Below are positions 33,428 to 43,438 of a stretch of DNA of 64,000 nt, piece after piece. Below the pieces are notes generated by a model. That model saw only the letters and a list, made by a program, of their open reading frames with translations, was not told the origin of the DNA and did no database searches. Numbering within the stretch: position 1 is the first letter of the stretch; every line of letters starts with the position of its first letter. Both the position numbers and the translations under genes were made by a program. The DNA is from Candidatus Bathyarchaeota archaeon. GTDB lineage: Archaea; Thermoproteota; Bathyarchaeia; Bathyarchaeales; Bathycorpusculaceae. The stretch is taken from NCBI GenBank assembly GCA_963775465.1, contig CAVZIW010000001.1, positions 320,001 to 384,000 of the forward strand. Reading direction: 5' to 3'.

Positions 33428-33982
33428 ATGAGCGAAAATAAAAATTTAGAAGTCGCAACTCTTGCTGCTGGATGTTTCTGGTGCACGGAAGCGGCATTTA
33501 ATATCATTAAAGGCGTTGAACGTATTGAACCTGGTTACACAGGAGGCACAACCGTTAATCCAACATATGAAGAGGTTTCAACGGGCTCTACGGGGCATGC
33601 AGAAGCAGCACAGATATATTTTGACCCCAAAGTCATCAGTTACAAAGAAATCTTGGAAATCTTTTTCACTATGCATGATCCAACCTCACTGAATCGGCAA
33701 GGCGCAGATATAGGAACACAATACCGTTCAGCTATCTTCTACCACAACCAACAACAAAAAGAAACCGTGGAAAAACTCATAGCTGAACTCACCCAAGAAG
33801 GCATTTGGGACAAACCTATAGTAACAGAAATCGTTCCGCTTAAAACATTCTACAGCGCTGAAACCTACCACAAAGACTACTACAAAAAACACCCCAAAGA
33901 ACCCTACTGCCAAGCAGTCATCGCCCCAAAAATCGCCAAACTTCAACAGCGATTCCTCGACAAAATCAAGGTACCCCTATGA
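33428..33982 (+). CDS. msrA: Peptide-methionine (S)-S-oxide reductase
   Basis: AAGCFWC, GHAE, HDPT, GTQYRS, AETYHKDYY. Confidence 0.96.
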   Translation: MSENKNLEVATLAAGCFWCTEAAFNIIKGVERIEPGYTGGTTVNPTYEEVSTGSTGHAEAAQIYFDPKVISYKEILEIFFTMHDPTSLNRQGADIGTQYRSAIFYHNQQQKETVEKLIAELTQEGIWDKPIVTEIVPLKTFYSAETYHKDYYKKHPKEPYCQAVIAPKIAKLQQRFLDKIKVPL

Positions 33983-34545
33983 CAAATCAAACCTCAACAA
34001 GCGCTGACCAAATTCTAATGCAGATCGAAAAACTCTCAGAAAAACATTTTCTTCCTATCATTGGAGCCAGCAAAGGAAAGATTTTAGCAGAGCAAGTTCG
34101 GAAATCCAAGCCACAGCATATACTTGAGGTGGGAACTCTAATCGGCTATTCCGCTATTCTCATGGGAAGAGAACTGGATGAAAACGCCGAAATCGTAACT
34201 ATAGAAATCCACCAAGACGAAGCAGAACTCGCAGAAAAAAACATCCAAAGAGCAAACATTCCGCCTAAAATCACAATTATAACAGGTGACGCAAAAACAA
34301 TAATACCTACTCTCAAAGGATCTTTTGACTTTGCTTTCATCGACGCAGAAAAAAACGAGTATTTCCAGTACCTCAAACTAGCAGAGCCCAAACTTCAAAA
34401 GGGCTCCGTCATAGTGGCTGATAACGCTGGAATCTTTGCCGACCAAATGAAAGACTACTTAGATTACATGCGGAATTCAGGGAAATATAGTAGTCGATAC
34501 GTTAAGGTTGGAGGCGACGGCTTAGAAATCAGCGTTAAACTCTAA
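33979..34545 (+). CDS. O-methyltransferase (Methyltransf_3/COMT-like)
   Basis: LEVGTLIGYS, FIDAEK, IVADN. Overlaps the msrA stop. Confidence 0.9.
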   Translation: MTNQTSTSADQILMQIEKLSEKHFLPIIGASKGKILAEQVRKSKPQHILEVGTLIGYSAILMGRELDENAEIVTIEIHQDEAELAEKNIQRANIPPKITIITGDAKTIIPTLKGSFDFAFIDAEKNEYFQYLKLAEPKLQKGSVIVADNAGIFADQMKDYLDYMRNSGKYSSRYVKVGGDGLEISVKL

Positions 34546-34550
34546 CCTAA

Positions 34551-34560
34551 AGATTTAAGG
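34551..34560 (+). promoter_or_regulatory. Putative TATA box for the ncRNA
   Basis: TTTAAG after an A-rich BRE-like stretch, ~25 nt upstream of the GC-rich structured block at 34581. Confidence 0.5.
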
Positions 34561-34580
34561 ATGGTTGGTTGGCAATTTGT

Positions 34581-34707
34581 GTGGGTGGACGATGACGAGT
34601 CTGGCCCCGCAGACGCAAGGATGATGTGGATCTTGAGTGCGGACGACGGCAATGATGAAAGCTTTTAGGCTTGTCTTGAAAGTGGAGTTGCCGCCTAAGA
34701 GCCCACC
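34581..34707 (+). ncRNA. Multi-box C/D guide sRNA; middle guide predicted for tRNA-Leu(CAA) Cm34
   Basis: C-like boxes ATGACGA 34592, ATGATGT 34621 and ATGATGA 34652. D-like boxes CAGA 34610 and CGGA 34640 follow 11- and 12-nt guides. Terminal stem GTGGGT/GCCCAC, upstream TATA, downstream TTTT. Confidence 0.72.
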
Positions 34708-34743
34708 TATCATTTTAGTGTCCGATGGAATTCTCAGTAACTC

Positions 34744-35082
34744 TTATTTTAAGGAGTAAGCGCTAGAGATTAAATTGTTCGGATTCTCTTTCTCTCTTCT
34801 CTCTGCAGTTTCTTTCATTTCTTCAACAGTTTTATCCATACTTGTCAGAGGCAACCGATTTCCCGAAACAATTTGACGTGATAGCAACTTGACCCGTTCA
34901 TGTCCAGCGTTGTATTTTATATCTAAAAAAGTCAACTCTTTATCAGTCACAAATAATTCCACAACACAGTCTTTAGGGTGTTCTTCAGGGATACCGCGGA
35001 CAATTATTGCGTAGTAGTCATGTTTTCCCCTCGAAAAGAGGCTGCCATCTGAGTCAACCGCTGTCCAATTCAATGTTACCAA
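34744..35082 (-). CDS. Hypothetical protein
   Basis: 112-aa ORF with GGAG SD, directly after the Dim2 gene. Confidence 0.7.
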   Translation of the reverse strand: MVTLNWTAVDSDGSLFSRGKHDYYAIIVRGIPEEHPKDCVVELFVTDKELTFLDIKYNAGHERVKLLSRQIVSGNRLPLTSMDKTVEEMKETAERREKENPNNLISSAYSLK

Positions 35083-35102: not shown

Positions 35103-35681
35103 TTATTCTTTGGTTGGTGGCTTTTCCCATAATTCCAGTTTTTGTTTTTTAAGTTCACTACGTTTACGTTGTAGATACTTGTAGACTGAATGATGTTGAC
35201 AGCCTTCGATTATCATCTGCACGGCGTTACGTGCAATGTCTGCTTGTTCAAAACTGCCGATAATCGCCACTGTATGCCCATAAACGACAACATCTGCCTC
35301 TGAGAGTTCTTCGATAAGTCGACGAGTTTTTCCTTCGGTACCTATTAGTCTACCTTTAATACGCTTCATGTCCGATTCGGAACGCCCAAAAATTAGACGC
35401 AGATCCACTAAGTCAAATATATCATCTTCGTTTCGAATCAAACGAAATGCAGTTTCAGGCGTAAACCCCCGGCCGATGGCAGTTACAACATCCTTGGCTT
35501 TTAGCAACATAGAAGGGTCAGATGCAGTTTCAAGCAGTACAATAGAGACGCTGCCTTCTCGGTCAATGTCCAATTTCACGTTTAGTTTCTTCTCTATATG
35601 CGCTTTTACTCTCCCTTCTGGACCGACTAAAATGCCGACACGTTCTTTGGGGATTCTAACAAAAGTATCTGGACCAACCAT
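35103..35681 (-). CDS. dim2: KH-domain pre-rRNA processing protein (Dim2/Pno1/Krr1 family)
   Basis: RVGILVGPEG, AIGRGF, KGRLIGTEGKTRR, VYKYL. Confidence 0.93.
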   Translation of the reverse strand: MVGPDTFVRIPKERVGILVGPEGRVKAHIEKKLNVKLDIDREGSVSIVLLETASDPSMLLKAKDVVTAIGRGFTPETAFRLIRNEDDIFDLVDLRLIFGRSESDMKRIKGRLIGTEGKTRRLIEELSEADVVVYGHTVAIIGSFEQADIARNAVQMIIEGCQHHSVYKYLQRKRSELKKQKLELWEKPPTKE

Positions 35682-41741: not shown

Positions 41742-43438
41742 ATTGGAAAAACGTCCTCTACCTGCTACGTGTTGAACGCAAATCAGGCAGGTTACTACGT
41801 GGAGTAAAAACCACAAGGTACCGTGAAAGAGGCATTATTGCGTATTGGCCATACTGGGTGTCCGCAATAATCGGTATAAGTGGTGGTTTGATAGCTAATT
41901 TAGTTGTTTCGGCAATATATTCTGATGCAACTGCATCTGCCCTTTTGCCACCTCTTTCGGAGGCTACACTTAGCTTCTTTGTTTCTTTGCCTACACTGAT
42001 TCTAGTATTAAGTGTGGTCCTCACTATGCTACAGCAGATTCAGTTAGCAGGTTTAAAAGCCACCAAGGTAGTTAATTACTGGCTCCCAATTACTTGGCAA
42101 GAACACACTTTAGCTTCTATTTTGGCTAATTTATTTGGCCTCCCATTCGCAACCGTCATCGCGTTTTCATTTGGCACAATCGTTTTCGCAGCGTTTAATG
42201 GTTTAATTTTTTCTGCACTGATAACTACACTTGCCCTATTCGGTGCAGCTTTTATGGCGAGTGCAACCACCGAAATCGTCCGTGTTTTGCAGGTACGTTT
42301 CACAGGCGCAGTTTACAAATCCAGCGGAAAAGCGGCTGTCTGGGTCAGATTTATTGGTACTCTCATCTTCTTTTTGGCGTTCTATATAATTTATTTCTCA
42401 ATAACTCAGGGTACTACACAGTTTATTCAAGGATTAGCAGCAGCGCAAAACGCAGTTTGGTTCGTTCCTTTCGTGTGGCTTGGCGTGACCTTATTCTACT
42501 TGCTAAACGGCATAGTTGTTGAAGGTGTAATATTCATTGCATTATCTGCATTATTTATAACTGCTTTGTACTACCTGGCCATTGCATTAAATAGACGCTT
42601 TGGGCTCTACGAACCTCCAGCAATCACTGTTCAAACGCATGGAACTGTTTACAAACCGAAAAGCGGCATCTTAGGGAAACTTGGCTTCTCAAGTGTCGAA
42701 GCAGCGCTCATCCGCAAAGATGTCCGATCATTTACAAGACGACGAGAATTAATCAGTGTATTTATCATACCCATAGTATTCATCATATTGCCAATTATGC
42801 AATCTTTGAATATAACGAGCAATCCAGATGCCCCATCACAAATTGGTGCATTCTTTATGGGCATGGTTTTTCTAATGCCTCCAGCTTTTATGTCAATGAT
42901 TTTAGGTAATATGCTCATCGGCGAGGAAGGACAAGCGGTATGGCGTATCTATGCATCACCTATTTCACCTAAGAACCTTGTAAAAAGCAAATTTTTCTTT
43001 CAGATTTTGTTTTCCGTTATCATTCTATTCATCACTGGAACAGCAGGCATTATAATTTATCAACCATCTATTAGGATCGTGATTGTTGCTTTTCTTGAAG
43101 GACTTTTTCTGATTCTGCCGTTGGGCTCAATTGGATTGACATTCGGTTTTAAAGGTGCTGATTTCAGCGCAAGTCGCCGCGCGAGAATGATTCGACAACA
43201 ATGGTCGTTAATTAGTTTAGTAGTTTGCTTTGTTGCCGGAGTAGGAATCTTGGCCCCATTGCTGCCATACATAATCAACAGTTTCCTACCAGGCTTTTTA
43301 ATCTCAATACCTACAAGTAATCTCAACCTCACAATATCAGTCGTTATTAGCGGTGTAATCGCAACTGTTATCAGCGCAATTTTCTACAGAATAAACATCA
43401 ACAGCGCCGCTGAACTCATAAGAAAAGCTGAGGTTTAA
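41738..43438 (+). CDS. ABC exporter permease (multi-TM)
   Basis: Many hydrophobic TM segments; ATGA overlap with the ATPase gene. Confidence 0.85.
   Translation: MNWKNVLYLLRVERKSGRLLRGVKTTRYRERGIIAYWPYWVSAIIGISGGLIANLVVSAIYSDATASALLPPLSEATLSFFVSLPTLILVLSVVLTMLQQIQLAGLKATKVVNYWLPITWQEHTLASILANLFGLPFATVIAFSFGTIVFAAFNGLIFSALITTLALFGAAFMASATTEIVRVLQVRFTGAVYKSSGKAAVWVRFIGTLIFFLAFYIIYFSITQGTTQFIQGLAAAQNAVWFVPFVWLGVTLFYLLNGIVVEGVIFIALSALFITALYYLAIALNRRFGLYEPPAITVQTHGTVYKPKSGILGKLGFSSVEAALIRKDVRSFTRRRELISVFIIPIVFIILPIMQSLNITSNPDAPSQIGAFFMGMVFLMPPAFMSMILGNMLIGEEGQAVWRIYASPISPKNLVKSKFFFQILFSVIILFITGTAGIIIYQPSIRIVIVAFLEGLFLILPLGSIGLTFGFKGADFSASRRARMIRQQWSLISLVVCFVAGVGILAPLLPYIINSFLPGFLISIPTSNLNLTISVVISGVIATVISAIFYRININSAAELIRKAEV

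What the first reader, a model, noticed from the sequence alone, without database searches (positions are those of the whole stretch)
34551..34716. Stand-alone three-C-box guide RNA; the N+5 rule points to wobble C34 of tRNA-Leu(CAA)
Seen: a ~130-nt GC-rich unit, about twice the usual archaeal C/D sRNA length, with its own TATA, terminal stem and T-tract. Layout: C(ATGACGA)-11 nt-D'(CAGA)-C'(ATGATGT)-12 nt-D(CGGA)-C''(ATGATGA)-3' domain. The guide GGAUCUUGAGU (34628-34638) is the exact complement of ACUCAAGAUCC, the usual archaeal tRNA-Leu(CAA) anticodon loop and 3' stem. The fifth base before CGGA (G34635) pairs with the anticodon C. Established: archaeal C/D RNAs guide 2'-O-methylation at tRNA position 34. 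Inference: a composite guide with an extra domain. The target tRNA is not in this window, and the target of guide 1 (GUCUGGCCCCG) is unknown.
Basis: partly seen in the sequence, partly recalled or inferred. Interest (0 to 1): 0.8.

Follow-up and report, generated by a model that had tools for sequence, protein, structure and literature searches.

The report
tRNA-Leu methylation guide RNA with insert
This is an archaeal box C/D guide RNA that most likely directs ribose methylation of the wobble base of tRNA-Leu(CAA), an ordinary job, but here it carries an unusual extra hairpin wedged next to its box D.

Summary
The RNA body is 34583-34708, 126 nt and 56% G+C in a 38% window.

It belongs to a box C/D sRNA family found in 33 of 41 related genomes and in at least 115 records, mostly titled Bathyarchaeia. 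No Rfam model reaches its gathering score.

Guide 2 pairs perfectly (11 bp) with the spliced tRNA-Leu(CAA) of this genome. The gene has a 38-nt intron and ARAGORN called it Ser. In relatives with a canonical CUGA next to the terminal stem, N+5 falls on C34. Such guides are already predicted in Pyrococcus.

The "three-C-box" layout is a lineage feature. 44 of 97 clean homologs are ordinary ~65-nt sRNAs. The other 53 carry a variable 37-74-nt hairpin at one site, between the Y-G that follows the guide and the (A)NGA next to the stem. Here the hairpin is 34645-34695, with a K-turn-like loop.

CGGA is not a conserved box D: its second G covaries as a Watson-Crick pair. A 15-nt antisense match to the genome's own 23S is significant, but relatives do not share it. 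Guide 1 has no convincing target. Expression, protein binding and methylation are untested.

The parts
34553..34559 (+). TATA-like promoter box (ATTTAAG), about 24-30 nt upstream of the 5' stem
   Evidence: An A/T-rich TTTAAAG/TTTTAATG-type box at -39..-33 from the C box is conserved in 108 homologs.
34583..34590 (+). 5' strand of terminal stem P1 (GGGUGGAC)
   Evidence: Pairs with 34701-08. There are 30 distinct stem variants with compensatory changes in 97 homologs, e.g. position 3 is U-A 61, C-G 15, U-G 17. In the own clade 98.9% of cells are paired.
34591..34598 (+). Box C (GAUGACGA, a RUGAUGA variant with C at position 5)
   Evidence: Invariant in the 30 BLAST-found homologs, except that L030 has GAUGACAG.
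34599..34609 (+). Guide 1 (D' guide, GUCUGGCCCCG); orphan
   Evidence: The core UCUGGCCCC is conserved in all 30 BLAST-found homologs. The best rRNA/tRNA match is no better than shuffles, 197 of 300. Candidate 23S sites are not co-conserved.
34610..34613 (+). Box D' (CAGA; CUGA in the short homologs)
34621..34627 (+). Box C' (AUGAUGU)
34628..34638 (+). Guide 2 (GGAUCUUGAGU), antisense to A31-C41 of tRNA-Leu(CAA); G34635 lies opposite C34
   Evidence: 11 Watson-Crick pairs with the spliced tRNA, reached by 1 of 300 shuffles. GAUCUUGAGU is present in all 30 BLAST-found homologs. ACUCAAGAUC is kept in 28 of the 30 loci fetched with the tRNA-Leu gene; 2 are 3' fragments that do not reach the anticodon arm, 1 has ACUCAAG followed by an intron that does not begin with AUC, and 1 locus (L102) is a different Leu tRNA.
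34640..34643 (+). CGGA at the ancestral box-D position. C-G is conserved as Y-G. The second G pairs with C34694
   Evidence: After GAGU comes N-Y in 97 of 97 homologs and N-Y-G in 93 of 97. The G42-C94 pair covaries: G-C in 6, A-U in 5.
34645..34695 (+). Inserted hairpin. It has an outer helix 34645-53/34687-95, a K-turn-like internal loop (GAUGA 34654-58 opposite GGA 34684-86), an inner helix 34661-69/34675-83, and the loop CUUGU
   Evidence: The helices are 91-93% paired, with 9 pairs changed on both sides; 0 of 500 shuffles reach this. All 53 insertion forms fold as one hairpin, with mean z -2.44; this one has z -1.3.
34661..34675 (+). 15-nt stretch antisense to this genome's 23S rRNA 689-703. 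It is also the 5' strand and loop of the inner helix
   Evidence: 14 Watson-Crick pairs plus 1 G-U, reached by 0 of 300 shuffles. Relatives score only at chance level, about 11 of 15.
34696..34700 (+). UAAGA: the conserved GA next to the terminal stem, and the most likely box-D partner of box C
   Evidence: The last four nt before the stem in 53 insertion forms are AAGA 42, AUGA 5, ACGA 4, UAGA 1, AGGA 1.
34701..34708 (+). 3' strand of terminal stem P1 (GCCCACCU)
34713..34716 (+). T-tract, a possible terminator
   Evidence: Present here. A run of four or more T lies within 30 nt in 45 of 108 homologs.

Best explanation
The locus encodes a box C/D sRNA with its own promoter. It belongs to a family that is widespread in records titled Bathyarchaeia.

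Inferred mechanism: with L7Ae, Nop5 and fibrillarin, the guide between C' and D (34628-38) pairs with the anticodon arm of tRNA-Leu(CAA). It can pair before or after splicing. It places the 2'-OH of wobble C34 for methylation. Guide 1 is a conserved orphan.

In this lineage an ancestral ~65-nt sRNA acquired a hairpin expansion (34645-95). The hairpin sits at one fixed site, between the Y-G that follows the guide and the GA that abuts the terminal stem. Box D is therefore effectively split, or displaced.

Here the hairpin carries a K-turn-like internal loop that could bind a third L7Ae. It also carries a species-specific 15-nt antisense match to 23S rRNA.

Shown here: the sequence features, their conservation and covariation, the complementarity to the tRNA, and the presence of the protein genes. 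Inferred: expression as a small RNA, RNP assembly, the methylated nucleotide, and any role of the hairpin.
For: - Boxes and spacings are as described.
- The RNA is conserved in 33 of 41 related genomes and in at least 115 genome records.
- The terminal stem covaries and a promoter-like box is conserved.
- tRNA-Leu(CAA) at G000:C6:69385-69510(-) has the exact 11-nt target after intron removal. Three related genomes carry it with no intron in the anticodon loop, as GGACUCAAGAUCCUU.
- In homologs with CUGA, CGGA or UGGA directly next to the stem (7 of 97), the fifth base upstream pairs with C34. The spacing from the guide to Y is invariant in 97 of 97.
- The spacer between that Y-G and the stem-proximal GA grows stepwise: 0, 1, 2 or 3 nt, then 37-74 nt, always at the same site.
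- The hairpin is supported by covariation and folds as one hairpin in 53 of 53 insertion forms.
- Fibrillarin, Nop5 and two L7Ae-family genes are present.
- Pyrococcus C/D guides for C34 of tRNA-Leu(CAA) are reported as predicted. tRNA-targeting sRNAs usually have one orphan guide (passages of PMC7994747; PMC7668247).
Against: - There is no direct evidence of a discrete small RNA. Four low-depth metatranscriptome contigs cover only 34400-34630, are joined to the upstream ORF, and could be DNA or read-through.
- Which GA acts as box D is unresolved. CGGA, ACGA (34643-46) and AAGA are all candidates. With a 51-nt hairpin between guide and AAGA the N+5 ruler may not hold. In many relatives a GCGA or GUGA register would point to A35. 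In 6-nt-spacer forms a plain GNGA reading would point to U33.
- Guide and target are both invariant, so the pairing shows conservation, not covariation.
- The own hairpin's fold z-score is only -1.3.
- The K-turn consensus is broken in 5 of the 11 own-clade sequences (L003, L004, L005, L119, L150), which have A or U at position 2n.
- Guide 1 is strictly conserved yet has no target.
Confidence: 0.7

Rival explanations
1. This is one composite guide with three functional C boxes. CGGA (34640-43) is box D of unit 1. The 3' domain is a further guide unit whose antisense 34661-75, followed by UUGA 34676-79, directs methylation or folding of 23S rRNA near own position 693.
For: - CGGA lies exactly where CUGA or CGGA lies in short homologs.
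- There is 15-bp complementarity to this genome's 23S 689-703, reached by 0 of 300 shuffles.
- A C-box-like motif occurs in 22 of 53 insertions.
- Relatives L009, L011, L167 and L176 carry a near-complete C...CUGA...AUGAG... module in the insertion.
Against: - CGGA is not conserved, and its G42 covaries as a Watson-Crick pair.
- The UUGA and much of the antisense stretch are paired inside a covarying hairpin.
- There is no C' partner for UUGA.
- Relatives' equivalent stretches match their own 23S only at chance level.
- 31 of 53 insertions have no C-box-like motif.
Confidence: 0.17
2. The hairpin is removed or cut after transcription, like an intron or a processing site. That would leave an ordinary ~70-nt sRNA ending ...GAGUGCG-AAGA-stem, or it would yield two separate small RNAs.
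For: - Deleting the insertion would recreate a spacer seen in natural short forms: gcgaaga in L122, L141 and L160.
- The insertion always sits at one site and is a closed hairpin.
- This genome splices introns at unusual tRNA positions.
Against: - There is no bulge-helix-bulge motif. The helix base has only a 5'-side bulge, here and in L010 (read).
- No joined contig was seen (table 5: none), though contigs cannot exclude one.
- The K-turn-like loop and the conserved A-N-GA suggest the hairpin is retained.
Confidence: 0.06
3. The RNA pairs with tRNA-Leu but does not guide methylation of C34. It might act as a chaperone or antisense RNA, or it might direct methylation to a neighbouring nucleotide (C32, U33 or A35), or also to U34 of tRNA-Leu(UAA).
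For: - The box-D register is ambiguous across the family.
- tRNA-Leu(UAA) at G000:C4 around 151355(-) has ACUUAAGAUCC. That gives 10 Watson-Crick pairs plus a G-U at position 34.
Against: - Canonical members give C34.
- Position 34 is the site predicted for the Pyrococcus guides that pair with tRNA-Leu(CAA) and tRNA-Leu(UAA).
Confidence: 0.07

Closest known systems
[quoted passage not shown]
   Same: It is a C/D guide whose antisense element covers the anticodon loop. N+5 falls on nucleotide 34 of tRNA-Leu(CAA). One guide targets the tRNA and the other is an orphan.
   Different: It comes from a different lineage (records titled Bathyarchaeia). Sequence homology was not shown: snoPyro_CD scores only 13.1 bits against a gathering score of 45. 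Box C is AUGACGA, and box D is non-canonical. Half of the family carries a 37-74-nt hairpin beside box D.
Canonical archaeal box C/D sRNA, 50-70 nt with 10-12-nt guides (PMC7994747, passage)
   Same: It has C, D', C' and D boxes, a terminal stem and an 11-nt D' guide. The short homologs fit this description fully.
   Different: Here the RNA is 126 nt. The conserved GA next to the stem is 58 nt from the end of the guide.
k-junction, a K-turn with a third helix on the non-bulged strand (PMC10573300, passages)
   Same: There is an extra helix on the box-D (non-bulged) strand of a K-turn.
   Different: In k-junctions the helix lies opposite the loop, between the C and NC helices, and L7Ae does not fold them. 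Here the helix enters on the guide side of the conserved GA.
L7Ae-binding K-turn hairpins outside guide RNAs, such as the L7Ae mRNA leader (PMC5539422 and PMC6298567; search listing only)
   Same: The inserted hairpin has a stem, a 3-nt bulge and a tandem G.A-type loop (GAU-GA opposite GGA).
   Different: It is embedded in a guide RNA. Binding was not tested. The consensus is degenerate in 5 of the 11 own-clade sequences.

Membership tests
Archaeal box C/D sRNA (methylation guide) | Box C (RUGAUGA) next to the 5' strand of a terminal stem | tested here: met
   GAUGACGA at 34591-98 follows stem 34583-90. The variant (C for U at position 5) is shared by the 30 BLAST-found homologs.
Archaeal box C/D sRNA (methylation guide) | Box D (CUGA) immediately before the 3' strand of the terminal stem and immediately after a 10-12-nt guide | tested here: inconclusive
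   AAGA abuts the stem, but lies 58 nt after the guide. CGGA abuts the guide, but not the stem, and its G is Watson-Crick paired. Short homologs meet the feature: CUGA, CGGA or UGGA in 7 of 97, and CG-N-GA in 26.
Archaeal box C/D sRNA (methylation guide) | Internal D' and C' boxes | tested here: met
   CAGA at 34610-13 and AUGAUGU at 34621-27. Short homologs have CUGA and UGAUUG/UGAUGU.
Archaeal box C/D sRNA (methylation guide) | Antisense element of at least 9 bp to a stable RNA, with N+5 on a plausible site | tested here: met
   Guide 2 makes 11 Watson-Crick pairs with tRNA-Leu(CAA), with N+5 on C34. Guide 1 does not meet this.
Archaeal box C/D sRNA (methylation guide) | Genes for L7Ae, Nop5 and fibrillarin in the genome | tested here: met
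   Nop5 and fibrillarin are adjacent at G000:C6:245416-246988. There are two L7Ae-family hits.
Archaeal box C/D sRNA (methylation guide) | Accumulates as a small RNA, binds L7Ae, and the target is 2'-O-methylated | not testable with these tools
   Only low-depth metatranscriptome contigs were available, and they cannot show ends or level.
Any Rfam C/D family (including snoPyro_CD, sR44) | Score at or above the family's gathering threshold | tested here: not met
   There were 0 hits in the window. The best was sR44 at 17.9 bits against 45. There were 0 C/D hits in 12 homolog loci.
k-junction | Third helix on the non-bulged strand opposite the bulge, between positions 1n and -1n | tested here: not met
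   The conserved GA follows the inserted helix and abuts the terminal stem. The definition comes from PMC10573300.
Archaeal intron (bulge-helix-bulge) | Two 3-nt bulges on opposite strands, separated by a 4-bp helix | tested here: not met
   Only a 4-5-nt bulge on the 5' strand at the helix base. This was judged by eye, not with a dedicated BHB scanner.

The most novel reading that the evidence does not exclude
Box D of this guide-RNA family is a permissive expansion site. The Y-G half stays with the guide and the GA half stays with the terminal stem. Lineages have loaded the gap with 37-74-nt modules, including nested K-turn (C/D-like) hairpins. These modules recruit an extra L7Ae and, as in this genome, add an rRNA-antisense arm. 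One RNP would then serve both tRNA-Leu wobble methylation and 23S rRNA binding.
Probability: 0.25. Interest if true: 0.65.

Novelty: new variant of a known kind. Interest (0 to 1): 0.5.

Why it matters
Archaeal C/D guide RNAs are regarded as tightly size-constrained, because the distance between box D and the guide sets the methylated nucleotide. Here a widespread family tolerates a large, fast-evolving hairpin at exactly that junction. That makes it a natural test of how rigid the box-D ruler is.

It also adds a conserved, Rfam-absent C/D family for an uncultured archaeal class. It links that family to wobble methylation of tRNA-Leu(CAA). The same nucleotide is methylated by a protein enzyme, TrmL, in bacteria (abstracts in the listing).

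The core function itself is ordinary.

Tried and rejected
Guide 1 target.
- An exact search for the complement of the family consensus in 41 genomes found only the sRNA gene itself and sites inside long ORFs.
- A G-U-tolerant genome scan found only three 23S sites.
- The 23S site near 1435 is changed in other families that keep the guide.
- The site near 896 needs 3 G-U pairs and lies in an invariant rRNA stretch.
- The shuffle test gave 197 of 300.
- I reject these as evidence, and guide 1 stays an orphan.

Other candidate guides.
- "Guide 4" (34680-96) against 23S 739-748 reached 125 of 300 shuffles.
- The stretch upstream of UGGA reached 64 of 300.
- Both are rejected.

Relatives' guide 3 against their own 23S: chance level.

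RNA evidence.
- Six metatranscriptome runs held small shares of the sampled words.
- Four runs were laid. Contigs cover 34400-34630 only, at low depth.
- The uncovered part, and the stops near 34620-30, are not evidence. They may be assembly breaks at a motif shared among strains.

Other readings.
- k-junction: rejected on topology.
- Intron/BHB reading: no BHB seen.
- A second unit closed by GGC 34648-50 with GCC 34701-03, suggested by the weak sR44 alignment: rejected, because that pairing is not kept in relatives.

Odd observations.
- The 9-nt identity between guide 1 and the tRNA-Leu(CAA) intron is limited to a few close relatives. It is left unexplained.

Tool and literature limits.
- ARAGORN's call of tRNA-Ser(CGA) for the C6 gene is rejected. 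The discriminator is A. A true Ser(CGA) lies at C3:31274. Three related genomes have an uninterrupted CAA anticodon loop.
- The paper search cannot take "C/D". Searches found no paper on C/D sRNAs of Bathyarchaeia. This is a weak negative.
- Supplementary files were not opened. The Lowe snoRNAdb and the tables of Lui et al. 2018 may list closer relatives.

Full report
OBSERVATION

- ATTTAAG 34553-59
- stem GGGUGGAC 34583-90
- box C GAUGACGA 34591-98
- an 11-nt guide 34599-609
- D' CAGA 34610-13
- C' AUGAUGU 34621-27
- guide GGAUCUUGAGU 34628-38
- CGGA 34640-43
- a third AUGAUGA 34652-58
- UAAGA 34696-700
- stem GCCCACCU 34701-08
- TTTT 34713-16

The 126-nt body is 55.6% G+C. The window is 37.7%. 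The unit lies between an O-methyltransferase-family ORF (33979-34545, +) and an unassigned ORF (34744-35082, -). A KH-domain gene follows. No Rfam family reaches its gathering score in the window. In the permissive search, the only matches on the RNA body (34583-34708) are weak ones to C/D families; the best is sR44 at 17.9 bits against 45.

IT IS A CONSERVED RNA GENE

BLAST with 34575-34716 finds one match in 33 of 41 related genomes, in 11 of 16 genera. The 8 misses include assemblies that are 58% and 76% complete. They also include a complete one-contig genome.

A pattern built from box C, guide 1 and guide 2 hit at least 115 stretches in the species-representative genome collection. Of the 80 rows listed, 75 are titled Candidatus Bathyarchaeia, Bathyarchaeota, Bathyarchaeales or Bathycorpusculum. 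The other five are titled Nitrososphaerota, Krumholzibacteriaceae, Crenarchaeota, miscellaneous Crenarchaeota group-6 and "uncultured archaeon".

Further support:
- In 97 cleanly parsed homologs the terminal stem has 30 variants with compensatory changes.
- A TATA-like box lies at -39 to -33 from box C in 108 homologs. This supports an own promoter.
- A T-run follows in only 45 of 108.
- Fibrillarin, Nop5 and two L7Ae-family genes are present in the genome.
- Twelve homolog loci gave no Rfam C/D hit.

THE tRNA TARGET

ARAGORN and the tRNA covariance model found no tRNA-Leu(CAA) at first. A search for the complement of guide 2 found two tRNA genes.
- G000:C6:69385-69510(-). ARAGORN called this Ser(CGA) with a 38-nt intron.
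- An undetected tRNA-Leu(UAA) near G000:C4:151355(-).

The C6 gene is Leu(CAA), for four reasons:
- Removing 38 nt at the canonical 37/38 site gives the loop CUCAAGA.
- The discriminator base is A.
- A separate, true Ser(CGA) exists at C3:31274.
- Three related genomes (L097, L099, L100) carry GGACUCAAGAUCCUU with no intron in the anticodon loop.

The spliced tRNA gives 11 Watson-Crick pairs with guide 2. One of 300 shuffled guides did as well, against 8.4 kb of rRNA and tRNA. The precursor keeps 10 of 11 pairs, because the intron begins with AUC. ACUCAAGAUC is kept in 28 of the 30 loci fetched with this gene. Two of the rest are 3' fragments that do not reach the anticodon arm, one has ACUCAAG followed by an intron that does not begin with AUC, and one locus is a different Leu tRNA.

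Guide and target are both invariant. This is co-conservation, not covariation. tRNA-Leu(UAA) would pair with a G-U at position 34.

WHICH NUCLEOTIDE?

Among 97 homologs, the bases after GAGU are always N-Y, and they are N-Y-G in 93. The distance from GAGU to the terminal stem falls into these classes:
- 5 nt (g/a + CUGA, CGGA or UGGA): 7 homologs
- 6 nt (g-CG-N-GA): 26
- 7 nt (g-CGGA-GA, g-CUGA-GA, g-CGAAGA): 9
- 8 nt: 2
- 37-74 nt: 53

In the 5-nt forms box D is unambiguous, and N+5 is the G opposite C34.

The series 0, 1, 2, 3, then 37-74 extra bases always falls between the Y-G and the stem-proximal GA. One homolog (L030) has a compensatory change: box C ...CAG with UGGA. Together these suggest that Y-G pairs with the C-G of box C (AUGA-CG-A), while the GA next to the stem makes the sheared pairs. 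On that reading the ruler starts at C34640 in every form and gives C34. This last step is inference. Other registers (GCGA or GUGA in many relatives, GNGA in the 6-nt forms) would point to A35 or U33.

THE "THREE C-BOX" ARCHITECTURE

The 3' domain is an insertion. In the eleven own-clade sequences (alignment A1) my structure has four helices:
- the terminal stem;
- the two C-G/G-C pairs;
- an outer insert helix 34645-53/34687-95;
- an inner helix 34661-69/34675-83.

It is 94.4% paired, with 9 pairs changed on both sides. None of 500 shuffles reached this. Slid controls are 28-45% paired.

RNAalifold adds G34641-C34695 and G34642-C34694. The latter covaries, G-C in 6 and A-U in 5. So the second G of CGGA is Watson-Crick paired rather than sheared. 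Elsewhere CGGA is replaced by CGAA, UGAG, CGUU and others.

Between the two insert helices lies a K-turn-like loop: GAU bulge, then G57.A86 and A58.G85. Five of the eleven own-clade sequences (L003, L004, L005, L119, L150) have A or U at the 2n position.

All 53 insertion forms fold as a single hairpin. Of these, 48 leave 4-6 unpaired nt before the stem. The mean z-score is -2.44, and 35 of 53 are below -2. This one is -1.3.

The hairpins are unrelated in sequence between lineages. Only 22 of 53 have a C-box-like motif. The last four bases before the stem are AAGA in 42, AUGA in 5, ACGA in 4, UAGA in 1 and AGGA in 1.

THE 23S MATCH

Positions 34661-75 are antisense to this genome's 23S 689-703, with 14 Watson-Crick pairs and one G-U. 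None of 300 shuffles reached this. But this stretch is also one strand of the covarying inner helix. The following UUGA is paired and has no C' partner. Relatives' equivalents match their own 23S only at chance level. I treat it as a possible recent, species-specific addition.

GUIDE 1

The core UCUGGCCCC is present in all 30 BLAST-found homologs, but no target emerged. An orphan second guide is reported as typical of tRNA-targeting sRNAs (PMC7994747, passage).

EXPRESSION

Four low-depth metatranscriptome contigs from three studies cover 34400-34630, contiguous with the upstream ORF. They show neither a discrete small RNA nor its absence.

COMPARISON AND VERDICT

C/D guides for the wobble base of tRNA-Leu(CAA) are already predicted in Pyrococcus. 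I read passages of PMC7994747 and PMC7668247. So the function is a known kind.

The k-junction is only a loose structural analogue. It differs in where the helix is inserted, and in that L7Ae does not fold it (PMC10573300, passages).

What is new is a class-wide family that is absent from Rfam, and a variable hairpin at the guide/box-D junction in about half of its members. I found no paper on this. That is a weak negative, because the tool cannot search "C/D" and supplements were closed.

Confidence in the C/D sRNA and tRNA-Leu C34 reading is 0.7. Interest is 0.5.

Noticed in passing
G000:C4:~151290-151460 (-) (locus L072): A tRNA-Leu(UAA) gene with an apparent intron in the D-arm region. Both ARAGORN and the RF00005 search missed it. 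Its intron contains GGCCAGAU, which is complementary to the GUCUGGCC found in guide 1 and in the tRNA-Leu(CAA) intron.
   Followed up: partly
G000:C6:69385-69510 (-) (locus L071): The 38-nt intron of tRNA-Leu(CAA) contains GUCUGGCCC. This is the same 9 nt, in the same sense, as guide 1 of the sRNA that targets this tRNA. It is seen only in a few close relatives (L073-L077). It is unexplained.
   Followed up: partly
G000:C6:291457-291632 (-): tRNA-Trp has a 93-nt intron with C/D-like boxes (AAUGACGA ... UGAAGA). It resembles the classical intron-encoded C/D guide of archaeal pre-tRNA-Trp.
   Followed up: no
G000:C4:86580-88073 and C4:187918-190953: The 16S and 23S rRNA genes lie about 100 kb apart on the same contig. 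They are not in one operon.
   Followed up: no
L218:135-215 (G015:C10:~42785-42865): A truncated extra copy of the 3' half lies 1.7 kb downstream of that genome's full sRNA. It has the end of guide 2, CGGAC, an own-clade-type hairpin and AUAAGA-GCUCAC. It is probably a remnant.
   Followed up: partly
L027 (G032:C24): This homolog carries two tandem copies of the guide-2 region (AAAUCUUGAGUG and CGAUCUUGAGUG), separated by about 60 nt.
   Followed up: no
window 33979-34545 (+) and 35103-35681 (-): The neighbours are a Methyltransf_3 O-methyltransferase (E 5e-25), directly upstream on the same strand, and a two-KH-domain protein like Pno1/Krr1 downstream. Whether this synteny is conserved was not checked.
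   Followed up: no
L164 (record titled Krumholzibacteriaceae bacterium) and L103 (Nitrososphaerota archaeon): Two family members sit in records with titles outside Bathyarchaeia. They may be mis-binned contigs or differently labelled records.
   Followed up: no
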